A DNA stretch of 52,671 bases from a bacterium (lineage in GTDB: Bacteria; Eisenbacteria; RBG-16-71-46): the NCBI GenBank assembly GCA_043779265.1, contig JAYWEM010000179.1, forward strand, positions 1-52,671. The letters run 5' to 3'. How positions within the stretch are numbered: the stretch's first letter is position 1; each line of letters begins with the position of its first letter. Of the stretch, positions 33,001 to 36,000 are shown piece by piece. A program made the position numbers.

Positions 33001-36000
33001 CCGGCGAGCAGTTCCCCGCCCGCCTCACGGTGGGCGTTCGGAAGTTCCGAGAACGTCGCATACGCGAAGGTCACACGCCCCCCGAACGGTGCGAGGCGCT
33101 GCCGTGAGAAAGCGAGCGCCTCGAGATCGCGGTCGCAGGCGAGCAGGCGGACCTCGGGATCGGCCGAGAGCAGCGCGAACGCATGCCCCCCGTCGCCGAG
33201 AGTCGCATCGAGATGGAGTCCTCCCCCAGGCTGCACGAACGCGAGCGTCTCGCGGACCAGCACGGGCTCATGACGCGCACTCATTCGTGGACTCGTGGGT
33301 CGCGGTGGGACTGGTCCACAGCTCCTCGACCGAGGGCCAGCAGCGAAGCTGCGGCTCACAACCGGCGAGGCGCAGGAGATCACGCAGATAGTGTGAGAGG
33401 CCGCACAGCACCGTCGCGCCGGCGCGCGCCTCGAACTGCACCAGTGAGCCGACGAGCCTTGGAACCAGGCGGTAGTCGACGTGGCGCAGCTGGCTGCAAT
33501 CGACCACGAGCTGGGAGACGCCACGCGCCGCGATCTCGGCCAGGGTCTCCTCGATGCGCCGCTCGGCCGACAGATCGATCCAACCGCGCAGCGCGAGCAC
33601 GGCGACGCGCCCCTGCGGACGGTCATGCCACTCGATGCGGCCGGAGGCCCCGTGACGGCCGCGCGTGAATTGGAGATTCACGGCCGTCTGCGGCGATCCT
33701 CTGTCGGGAAGCGAGACCATCACCCGAGTCCCCCCAGGACTTCCTCTCCAAGTGCATCGAGGTCTGCCTGCGCGGGCTCGACCGCTTCACGGAAGCGATC
33801 CGGCGCCCACAACTCGATGCGTCCGACTTGGCCGTGCAGGACGGCTTCCTTGCCGAGACCTGCACGGCTCATCAGTGGCGGCGGAATGGTGATCCGTCCT
33901 TGGGCGTCCACCGCCACTTTGCTGGCTCCGACGAGGAAGGCTCTCGCGAACTGACGCTCCTTTGCGCGACCGGTCGAGAGTTTGCGAAGGCGTTCCTCGA
34001 AATGCACCCAGTCCTCGTCCGCATAGAGCCAGAGACAGCCATCGAGCCCACCGACGAGAACGAACTGCGTGAGAGGTTGCTTGCGACCTGGCACTTTGCG
34101 ACTCGATGCGGGGATGACGATGCGTCCCTTGTCGTCGATCGAGTAGGTGTTGGTGCCGTAGAAGGTCGCCATGCGTTTTCCTGGGGCTGGGCCGGTTCGA
34201 CATTTTCTCCCCGGAACCCCCATTTCCTCCCACAAGCCGCAATGTAGACCGGGGCTTCGGGAGAGTCAATCGTTTTTCATCGCATCGTGCGATGGGGCCT
34301 CGACTTGCACGGGTGTGCAGGGAGACCGGGGGACGATTCGCGGCGCTTCGCAGGGGCCTTCAGTCGGCCCCGGTCGCCAGGTGCCTTCGGATCGAGTCGG
34401 CGACGACCCAGTCGATCCGGTAGATCGTGTAGACCGCGGCGCCAGGGCGCGCGATGCCGAGATTGGGAAGCGAGGCGTGGCCGACCGGCGTGAGCGCCGG
34501 TGCGAACGGACTGCGATCCAGCAGATCGAATGGGCGAGGCGCTCGGTCCATCAGCACCTCGGGGCGCGCGACCTTGGCGAACTCGAACTGCGCGACGGCA
34601 TCCTCCTGCGGCATGCGCGCGAGGATCGGGACCATCCCGGGAGTGACGAGCCCCGCGAGGTCGAGCACTCGCCGCTCGCTGAAGTAGCCGACCGCGCCGA
34701 TATCCGGCGCGGCGACCACGGCGTCGCGAGCGGTGTTCTCCCGGAACCACTTCCCCCACGGGATCAGGCTGGCTCGCATGCCGGCACTGAGCGAGTCCAC
34801 CTGGGGCACGACCTTCTGCTGGTGGACGAGCAGATTGGGCACGACGCTCAACAGCATGAGCCCGAGACCGAGCAGCGCGGCTCCGCGCCGGTCCTCGCGA
34901 CGCGGCGCATTGCCGCTCCACCACCGCTCGACCGCCCACCACGAGAGCCAGGCGAGGATCGGCATGATCGGCAGCAGGTAGCGCGAGAGCACCGGCACAC
35001 CGCGCATCGTGTAGAGCAGGGGCAGCGCCGCCACCCACACCCAGGGCAGCAGGCGCTGCGCCTGCCATTGCCCACGGCCCGGCCACACACGTGCGCCCGC
35101 GAACACGAGTGCCGCCACGAGGGCACCCGCCAATGCCGCATCGGTGGCGCCGACGATCTGCGCCTGACGCATCAGCTGCTCGGCGATGTAGTCCCAACCC
35201 TCCCCGCCCGCCACCTTCGCGGCGAGTGTGTTGGGCCAGAACGAGCCGAACGTGAGCCGCGCATAGAGCAACCAGCCGCCGTAGATGATCGCCGGCGGCA
35301 GCGCTCCGAACAGCAGCCGTCGGATGCCGGCTCGCGAGTCCGTGTCGATGATGAGGAAGATCCCCCACAGGACGAGCAGGAACACCGCCTCGGGCCGGGT
35401 CAGCGCCGCGAGTGCCCAGAGCGCGCCGGTCCGCACCGGTCGCGACCCCCATTGCTTGCCCTCGGTGAATGCGACGAACCCCGCGAGCACGAGCGCCACT
35501 GCCAGCGGTGTCTCCATCCCGGAGACCGACCAGCGCGACATCCACGCGTGGCTCGCCCACGTGACGACACCGAACGCGCGCAGCTCGGGCATGCGCAGAT
35601 CGCGCCGCAGCAACTGCAGGAAGAGGATCACCGACCAGATCGTCGCGATCGCGCCGAGGCCCTTGGCGACCATCAGGCCGTCCAGTCCGAGAGCGATACC
35701 ATCGGCGATCAGCGCCACCCACAGCGGACTCGTGCTGCCGTACACGTTCTCGCCCGGGTTGAACACGAAGCCGTTGCCGGCGGCGAGGTTCTTGGCGTAC
35801 TGCAGGTGGATGTACGTGTCGTCGGTGATGTAGCCGCGCAGCGGCCACATCAGCGCCACCACCAGCAAGAGGGCGATCGCGAGCCCGAACTTCTCGATTC
35901 GGGTGAGCGGTCCGTTCTCGGTCAGGATCACGACTTCTCCTTGGGAGTCCTCGTCGACAGCGTGGAGTCGAGCACCTCGGCGAAACGCTCGGCGAGTCGT

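What a model noticed while it worked through the whole genome (the two positions that open the first line are those of the whole stretch)
33268..33720. STAS-domain (anti-sigma-antagonist-like) gene built into the division/cell-wall operon between mraZ and rsmH
In the dcw cluster the slot between mraZ (g02773) and rsmH (g02771) is filled by a 150-aa STAS-domain gene (g02772) whose ends overlap both neighbours by 1 and 17 nt. I read it as a partner-switching-type regulator made together with the division genes, tying cell division to the RsbU/RsbW-like modules of this genome (11 SpoIIE phosphatases, 3 RsbW-like kinases, 5 STAS proteins). A dcw-embedded STAS protein would be a new, fairly widespread division regulator.
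Evidence so far: Gene table: g02773 33720-34172, g02772 33268-33720, g02771 32367-33284, all on the minus strand; counts of SpoIIE, HATPase_c_2 and STAS genes; sequence of g02772. Table of relatives: STAS_2 next to MraZ in 75 of 101 genomes of the order and 1099 of 84378 genomes that have both; STAS_2 next to Methyltransf_5 (RsmH) in 68 of 101 and 1013 of 101947. Papers holding 'STAS domain' and 'mraZ': 4, all unrelated expression or review papers by title and abstract.
(Added by a program. Inside this text positions count along the whole contig: contig position 1 is position 1 of the stretch shown here. "Call 12" and the like, gene names such as g00115 and contig names such as C1 are that model's own, and its searches are not shown. 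The text may have been shortened before it was handed on; [...] marks where a part breaks off. The agent that wrote the report below was given it as the finding of a first reader that could run no searches.)

Follow-up and report, generated by a model that had tools for sequence, protein, structure and literature searches.

The report
Serine-less STAS gene in division operon
A small conserved protein with the fold of an anti-sigma antagonist is encoded between mraZ and rsmH at the head of the cell-division operon in this lineage and in myxobacteria; it lacks the serine that normally switches such proteins, so it looks like an undescribed accessory regulator and not a classic phosphorylation switch.

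Summary
A real 150-aa STAS-fold gene (33268-33720, minus strand) sits between mraZ and rsmH, overlapping them by 1 and 17 nt, under purifying selection. It fills the same slot in 104 of 120 genomes of the phylum examined (13 of 18 families; not a random sample) and in Myxococcales-like contigs; five families have cleanly lost it.

The partner-switching reading fails its key test. The SpoIIAA/RsbV phospho-serine position is Tyr or Phe in 177 of 181 slot-confirmed copies, while the genome's other four STAS proteins keep Ser. The most invariant residues (H80, Y/F83, Y111) map onto RsbV's kinase-contact face, so that face is conserved but rebuilt. One Archangium-like contig keeps the gene intact beside a decayed mraZ, which argues against MraZ as obligatory partner.

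Best reading: a phosphorylation-independent STAS accessory protein, made with the division genes from a sigma70/MraZ-box promoter, binding an unidentified partner. Ten literature searches found no description. This scan noted the same arrangement before in at least 20 other genomes.

The parts
34241..34269 (-). sigma70-type promoter of the dcw operon (TTGACT, 17 nt, TACATT)
   Evidence: Only promoter-like site in 31800-34500; 0.1 expected in shuffles. A similar pattern lies upstream of mraZ in 50 of 60 family loci. Consensus match, not shown to function.
34200..34233 (-). MraZ-box-like repeats at 10-nt period (GTGG, ATGG, CGGG, then a weaker ATGT)
   Evidence: three-box pattern in 58 of 60 family loci; consensus of three GTG(G/T) boxes from PMC12957436 introduction.
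33720..34172 (-). mraZ, AbrB-type repressor of the dcw operon
   Evidence: PF02381 E 7e-28; TIGR00242 over cut-off.
33268..33720 (-). dcw-embedded serine-less STAS gene, 150 aa; STAS core about residues 36-133 plus N-terminal strands
   Evidence: dN/dS; slot conservation.
33469..33483 (-). codons for H80-V-D82-Y83-R84, replacing the SpoIIAA F-M-D-S-S phospho-site motif
   Evidence: Alignments to 1h4x, 1th8 and the Ser-to-Ala chain of 1tid; H80, D82, Y83, R84 invariant in 121 of 121 close homologues.
33388..33390 (-). codon for Y111, family-invariant residue at the position of RsbV Arg84
   Evidence: 172 of 181; mapping through a bridge sequence to RsbV contacts in PMC7340262.
32367..33284 (-). 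rsmH (mraW), 16S rRNA methyltransferase; its first codons dictate the STAS protein's last residues
   Evidence: PF01795 E 8e-71; TIGR00006 over cut-off; overlap sequences.
31939..32370 (-). probable ftsL (position and size only)
   Evidence: No Pfam or NCBIfam hit; conserved between rsmH and ftsI in relatives. Inference.
17330..31908 (-). rest of the dcw cluster: ftsI, murE, murF, mraY, murD, ftsW, murG, murC, ftsQ, ftsA, ftsZ
   Evidence: Pfam hits; individual Mur ligase names assigned by order and domain content.

Best explanation
The gene encodes a phosphorylation-independent STAS binding module that is an old, accessory member of the mraZ-rsmH-ftsL-ftsI unit in several lineages. Shown: real gene, STAS fold, fixed slot, no phospho-serine, a strongly conserved H80/Y83/R84/Y111 patch at the position of the ancestral kinase-docking face. 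Inferred: it is transcribed from the sigma70 promoter under MraZ repression and translationally coupled to mraZ, so its amount follows dcw expression instead of a kinase/phosphatase cycle. Inferred, least certain: like MlaB on MlaF, it binds and stabilises or tunes a protein partner through that rebuilt face, most likely a product of this operon other than MraZ (RsmH or an early division or peptidoglycan enzyme). It is not universally required. Real and conserved about 0.99; not switched at the canonical serine about 0.95; the whole mechanism with an in-operon partner 0.35.
For: Slot: 52 of 52 genome-collection loci with both flanks; 104 of 120 phylum genomes examined, 13 of 18 families; 59 of 74 motif-bearing metagenome loci show both flanks, 14 more show one flank and a contig end. 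L124 and L128 group with proteins named from Archangium lipolyticum and Hyalangium gracile. Motif: H80 177, Y/F83 177, Y111 172, R84 160 of 181, although mean pairwise identity is only 28%. RsbV residues that contact RsbW (Tyr53, Ser56, Arg84, Arg87, Ile91, Asp23; PMC7340262 passages) align to H80, Y83, Y111, D114, L118, D49. Start overlaps or lies within 10 nt of the mraZ stop in 141 of 181. L125 keeps an intact copy (dN/dS 0.17 against L126, like 0.18 between two intact loci) behind a mraZ remnant with three deletions and no boxes. Precedent for a STAS accessory subunit encoded with its partner: MlaB-MlaF (PMC7367683 passages).
Against: No partner is shown. No MraZ or RsmH column tracks presence of the gene cleanly: best contrasts were modest and not shared by all three positive groups. 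The gene is cleanly absent from the slot in 16 of 120 genomes (mraZ stop to RsmH match 13-223 nt) with the operon otherwise in place, so it is not a core division protein. MlaB itself keeps Thr52, so the analogy is partial. Surface position of the patch is inferred from alignment, not measured on the model. One slot copy and two unplaced relatives have Ser at 83, and 8 of 181 have Ser/Thr at 84. With the four motif columns removed the tree no longer separates slot copies from Ser-type STAS (4 changes), so a single origin is likely but not shown.
Confidence: 0.35

Rival explanations
1. Dosage-controlled antagonist of an RsbW-type anti-sigma factor or kinase. It binds the kinase as a non-releasable pseudo-substrate, so dcw expression level sets the activity of an alternative sigma factor.
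For: The conserved patch is at the RsbW-contact face. Closest solved sequences are SpoIIAA-type, not MlaB-type. HATPase_c_2 matches over cut-off in 205 of 206 genomes of the phylum. Mycobacterial RsfA is an antagonist controlled by a disulfide rather than phosphorylation (PMC7693655 passages).
Against: A bulky Tyr/Phe sits where Ser56 meets RsbW Glu49. The acidic pair at 47/49 (Glu21/Asp23 of RsbV) is kept in only 29 of 181. No RsbW, SpoIIE or sigma gene was looked for systematically in the fetched loci, but the flanks are mraZ and rsmH. Slot-less genomes keep RsbW-like domains.
Confidence: 0.25
2. Cofactor or anti-repressor of MraZ: binds the MraZ ring, shifts it between closed and DNA-bound forms, and tunes dcw transcription.
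For: Adjacent to mraZ, with coupling-type spacing in 141 of 181, tighter than to rsmH outside one family. MraZ needs ring remodelling to bind DNA and its cofactors are called unknown (PMC12957436 discussion).
Against: L125 keeps the STAS gene under selection after mraZ and its boxes decayed; one locus only, and mraZ could lie elsewhere in that genome. MraZ boxes persist in slot-less lineages (9 of 15). No MraZ residue tracks the gene cleanly.
Confidence: 0.15
3. Small-molecule or carrier sensor: H80, D82, Y/F83, R84 and Y111 form a pocket for a nucleotide, a metal or an acyl carrier, passing metabolic state to division.
For: His/Arg/aromatic cluster of near-invariant residues. STAS domains have been proposed to bind nucleotides, ions or fatty acids (PMC7367683); a STAS-ACP structure (3ny7) is among the fold matches (Z 12.4).
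Against: No ligand evidence. A shared fold shows no function. pI ranges 4.6-11.7 across copies. Not exclusive of the best explanation.
Confidence: 0.17
4. One reading: classic partner switch phosphorylated by RsbW-like kinases and dephosphorylated by SpoIIE phosphatases.
For: STAS fold closest to SpoIIAA/RsbV; genome has 11 SpoIIE and 3 RsbW-like domains.
Against: Ser/Thr at the acceptor position in 1 of 181; Phe, which cannot be phosphorylated, in 56. TIGR00377 41 bits against a cut-off of 53.45. Ser-type STAS proteins exist elsewhere in the genome for those modules.
Confidence: 0.04
5. Passenger or artefact: a neutral insertion or shadow frame with no functional link to the operon.
For: Lost in five families and part of a sixth. 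A 419-aa open frame runs through it in frame with rsmH.
Against: dN/dS 0.05-0.08; same slot and motif in distant lineages; no relocated copy among the best hits of slot-less genomes; RsmH matches start at the H-x-P-V motif in relatives.
Confidence: 0.04

Closest known systems
SpoIIAA / RsbV single-domain anti-sigma-factor antagonists (PF01740, PF13466; TIGR00377, TIGR02886; PDB 1th8, 1tid, 6m36)
   Same: Stand-alone STAS domain, same fold (VIA Z 14.5 to 1tid_B, 12.7 to 6m36_B), about 17% identity, strongest conservation on the same face.
   Different: Phospho-Ser replaced by Tyr/Phe, the aromatic three residues before it by His, the next Ser/Thr by Arg; below both TIGR cut-offs; encoded in the dcw operon, not with a sigma factor, anti-sigma or phosphatase; extra N-terminal strands in this family.
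MlaB (STAS subunit of MlaFEDB; PDB 6xgy)
   Same: Single STAS protein acting as an accessory subunit of a partner from its own operon, with no demonstrated phosphorylation (PMC7367683 passages).
   Different: MlaB keeps Thr52 and lacks the last strand and helix; weaker match (Z 9.5; profile E 0.003); no ABC transporter in this locus.
Mycobacterial RsfA (anti-SigF antagonist)
   Same: STAS-type antagonist controlled without phosphorylation (disulfide; PMC7693655 passages).
   Different: No conserved cysteine pair across the dcw family (C75, C106, C121 each under half of 181); different gene context; binding to an anti-sigma not shown here.
Canonical mraZ-rsmH(mraW)-ftsL-ftsI unit of the dcw cluster
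   Same: Same order, sigma70-type promoter and MraZ boxes (PMC12957436; bioRxiv 10.1101/2022.02.09.479790).
   Different: An extra conserved gene between mraZ and rsmH; not mentioned in the passages of the dcw papers read (0 'STAS' occurrences in PMC8871954).

Membership tests
STAS domain superfamily | Profile match over curated cut-off | tested here: met
   PF01740 42.4 bits against 22.6; PF13466 34.9 against 29.2.
STAS domain superfamily | STAS fold | tested here: met
   Model pLDDT 82.9; Foldseek and VIA top hits are STAS proteins.
SpoIIAA/RsbV anti-anti-sigma factors | Phospho-acceptor Ser/Thr at the start of helix 2 | tested here: not met
   Tyr83; Tyr or Phe in 177 of 181, Ser in 1; 30 of 30 comparison STAS have Ser/Thr.
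SpoIIAA/RsbV anti-anti-sigma factors | TIGR00377 / TIGR02886 over cut-off | tested here: not met
   41 against 53.45; 27.2 against 114.75.
SpoIIAA/RsbV anti-anti-sigma factors | Acidic Glu21/Asp23 pair used to displace sigma and bind the kinase | tested here: inconclusive
   Window has W47/D49; both acidic in 29 of 181, D49 in 88. Half kept.
SpoIIAA/RsbV anti-anti-sigma factors | Encoded next to anti-sigma kinase, sigma factor or PP2C phosphatase | tested here: not met
   Immediate neighbours are mraZ and rsmH, followed by dcw genes.
SpoIIAA/RsbV anti-anti-sigma factors | Binds an RsbW/SpoIIAB-type anti-sigma factor | not testable with these tools
MlaB-type STAS accessory subunits | Encoded with and bound to an ABC ATPase; Thr/Ser52; truncated fold | tested here: not met
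   No ABC gene in the operon; Tyr at the site; model retains the C-terminal helix.
dcw (mra) operon member | Same strand, no gap, downstream of the MraZ-box promoter, conserved slot | tested here: met
dcw (mra) operon member | Co-transcription and a role in division or wall synthesis | not testable with these tools
   Needs RNA data and genetics.

The most novel reading that the evidence does not exclude
An ancient, undescribed extra member of the mraZ-rsmH module: a STAS subfamily that traded the phospho-switch for a His/Tyr/Arg/Tyr ligand- or protein-binding site and directly gates a division or ribosome-maturation step, giving myxobacteria and several uncultured phyla a signal input into the dcw operon that is independent of MraZ and absent from E. 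coli and B. subtilis.
Probability: 0.3. Interest if true: 0.8.

Novelty: new variant of a known kind. Interest (0 to 1): 0.58.

Why it matters
The head of the dcw cluster is among the most conserved gene strings in bacteria, and how outside signals reach it is open (PMC12957436 names MraZ cofactors and signals as unknown). A conserved extra gene there, with a recognisable signature (H-x-D-[YF]-R plus S-x-Y), marks a regulator that databases mislabel as 'anti-anti-sigma factor' or 'anti-sigma B factor antagonist'. Close relatives occur in cultured Myxococcales, so it is testable by deletion and pull-down. Natural losses (five families) and one mraZ-less locus give ready comparisons. It would also add a STAS type whose docking face is conserved without the phospho-switch.

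Tried and rejected
RNA runs: none was listed. Inter-protein covariation on 113 paired rows (effective 66) gave only conserved-column noise. Columns of MraZ or RsmH tracking presence of the gene: none clean. Phyletic link to RsbW-like domains: uninformative, 205 of 206 genomes have one over cut-off, and histidine kinases can cross that cut-off. The first profile (A1) missed most distant copies: 38 of 54 scoreable 'no-match' genomes had the gene when the interval was read directly, so its negatives were rejected. Relocation in slot-less genomes: the best one to three hits of 15 slot-less genomes plus G056 carried no H-x-D-[YF] motif; only 30 of about 100 matches were fetched. The conserved C-terminal E-x-A-S was rejected as a functional motif; it is imposed by the overlapping rsmH start. 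A c-di-GMP RxxD reading of R79-x-x-D82 was dropped: R79 in 48 of 181. A careful tree did not finish; quick trees gave a slot/Ser split with motif columns (support 93) and none without. Myxococcota whole genomes could not be reached. Paper searches gave no description of the gene; the M. xanthus locus tags were recalled and may be wrong.

Full report
Observation. The window holds a complete dcw cluster on the minus strand, from mraZ (34172-33720) to ftsZ. Between mraZ and rsmH (33284-32367) lies a 150-codon ORF, 33720-33268, overlapping mraZ by 1 nt and rsmH by 17 nt. It scores over cut-off for Pfam STAS and STAS_2 but under cut-off for the anti-anti-sigma models TIGR00377 and TIGR02886. An AlphaFold2 model (pLDDT 82.9) matches SpoIIAA, RsbV and RsbS. 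The gene is under purifying selection: dN/dS 0.05 and 0.08 over the first 135 codons against L001 and L002, at or below mraZ (0.08, 0.15) and rsmH (0.18, 0.19). Named homologues are Candidatus Eisenbacteria. Upstream of mraZ are a sigma70-type promoter and MraZ-box-like repeats at 10-nt period, both recurring in relatives (50 and 58 of 60 family loci). These are consensus matches only.

Distribution. All 52 of 53 genome-collection loci that show both flanks have mraZ-STAS-rsmH. A profile of close homologues matched 139 of 206 genomes of the phylum. I read the mraZ-rsmH interval directly in genomes with strong, weak and no matches: 104 of 120 have the gene and 16 do not (chosen by hit status, not at random; kin are not independent; one negative, G073, is an unpublished genome). 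It is present in 13 of 18 families, absent in all examined genomes of five (f8, f9, f11, f12, f14), and mixed in f2. In the negatives the interval is 13-223 nt, and the best profile hits elsewhere in those genomes lack the family motif (30 loci fetched), so these are losses or primary absences, not relocations. Outside the phylum, a search of representatives gave proteins with the same motif, some named from Myxococcales. A metagenome scan returned 79 loci (best 80 of 133 kept): 74 carry the motif, of which 59 show both flanks, 14 show one flank and a contig end, and 1 (L125) has rsmH but no mraZ. Of the other five, one is a cut copy beside rsmH and four are not in the slot. L124 and L128 are sisters to proteins named from Archangium lipolyticum and Hyalangium gracile. 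A further clade (L182-L202) is in the slot but I could not assign its phylum; Atlas taxa are a lead only.

The switch is missing. The SpoIIAA motif F-M-D-S-S aligns without gaps to H80-V-D82-Y83-R84; Y83 pairs with the serine, and with the alanine of the substituted 1tid chain. Among 181 distinct slot-confirmed copies position 83 is Tyr 121, Phe 56, and Arg, Ala, His, Ser once each. Two unplaced relatives also have Ser, and 8 of 181 have Ser/Thr one residue on. In 30 comparison STAS proteins the position is Ser 27, Thr 3. The genome does hold 11 SpoIIE and 3 RsbW-like domains, but its four other STAS proteins keep the serine, one beside an RsbW-like/SpoIIE gene on contig C138. RsbW-like matches occur in 205 of 206 genomes regardless of the dcw gene.

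The docking face is kept but rebuilt. H80 (177 of 181), Y/F83 (177), Y111 (172) and R84 (160) stay nearly fixed while mean identity is 28%. RsbV contacts RsbW through Asp23, Tyr53, Ser56, Arg84, Arg87 and Ile91 (PMC7340262, passages). Through a bridge sequence these align to D49, H80, Y83, Y111, D114 and L118. The same face is named for SypA (PMC10120452; passages, introduction, section 13). I infer that the family uses this face for a conserved interaction of different chemistry; I did not measure exposure on the model. The C-terminal E-x-A-S conservation is a by-product of the rsmH overlap and is limited to one family. A single origin is suggested by shared motif and slot. A quick tree separates 60 motif-type from 30 Ser-type rows (support 93), but not once the four motif columns are dropped; the Ser-type set was itself picked with a profile of the window's family.

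Which partner. Spacing suggests translational coupling to mraZ (141 of 181 within 10 nt or overlapping), which makes MraZ the first suspect. Against that, L125 keeps the promoter but has lost the boxes and most of mraZ, leaving a remnant with three deletions, an insertion and many substitutions, while the STAS gene is intact with dN/dS 0.17 against L126. This is one short contig and mraZ might lie elsewhere. No MraZ or RsmH column tracks the gene cleanly. I therefore commit, at 0.35, to an MlaB-like accessory role on an operon product other than MraZ (precedent PMC7367683, passages). Rivals are a dosage-controlled RsbW antagonist (0.25; precedent RsfA, PMC7693655, passages), a ligand or carrier sensor (0.17), a MraZ cofactor (0.15), the classic switch (0.04) and a passenger (0.04). 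A role in division itself rests on position alone, and the losses show it is accessory.

What is known. Ten searches of the held library (listings and abstract starts) found no description. I read the abstract, introduction and discussion of PMC12957436 and passages of bioRxiv 10.1101/2022.02.09.479790 and PMC8871954; none of that text mentions such a gene. Subscription papers are missing from the library, including, as I recall, a 2022 bacteria-wide dcw survey whose figures or supplements could show it; no supplements were consulted. Earlier notes of this scan report the same arrangement and missing serine in at least 20 other genomes (8 shown). I had reached the serine-less reading before opening them; they are not independent support. 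What this report tests directly are the family-level loss pattern, the mapping onto the RsbW-contact face and the mraZ-less locus.

Verdict. Observation confirmed; interpretation partly supported. It is a member of the STAS superfamily, not of the SpoIIAA/RsbV phospho-switch family. New variant of a known kind; interest 0.58.

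Noticed in passing
L125:1013-1607: Archangium-like contig in which the dcw promoter is intact but the MraZ boxes and most of mraZ are deleted; the STAS gene becomes the first intact gene, followed by rsmH.
   Followed up: yes
window 19853-22068: murC is followed directly by ftsQ; no room for murB or ddl at their usual place in this cluster.
   Followed up: no
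window 8432-17466: After ftsZ come a multi-TPR protein, recG and a 1471-aa Kelch/galactose-oxidase-like protein on the same strand.
   Followed up: no
window 34360-38362: Upstream of the dcw promoter: two GT4-type glycosyltransferases and a 567-aa hydrophobic protein with no Pfam hit.
   Followed up: no
L260 and G036:C5:592141-593046: Two genomes lacking the dcw STAS gene (G055, G036) carry a second rsmH-like gene elsewhere.
   Followed up: no
L233-L237 (family f13 loci): The STAS gene is separated from the mraZ match by about 350-490 nt, much more than in other families; MraZ there is divergent and longer.
   Followed up: no
upstream of mraZ, loci: A TTGAC-type promoter pattern within 150 nt was found in 123 of 167 STAS-bearing but 3 of 15 STAS-less loci; may reflect longer leaders or the short window searched.
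   Followed up: no
P0164-P0199 and others: Large proteins of 560-1500 aa with two or three Ser-type STAS domains sharing a Y-[IV]-S-S-x-G-W-G motif.
   Followed up: no
L037, L041: Record titles name Acidiferrales and Saccharimonadaceae although the protein is 61-63% identical to the window's and the locus order is the same; probably label mismatches.
   Followed up: no
L107-L111, L122: A few members of the window's own family have a degenerate motif (Arg, Ala, His or Ser at 83), suggesting relaxation or incipient loss.
   Followed up: partly
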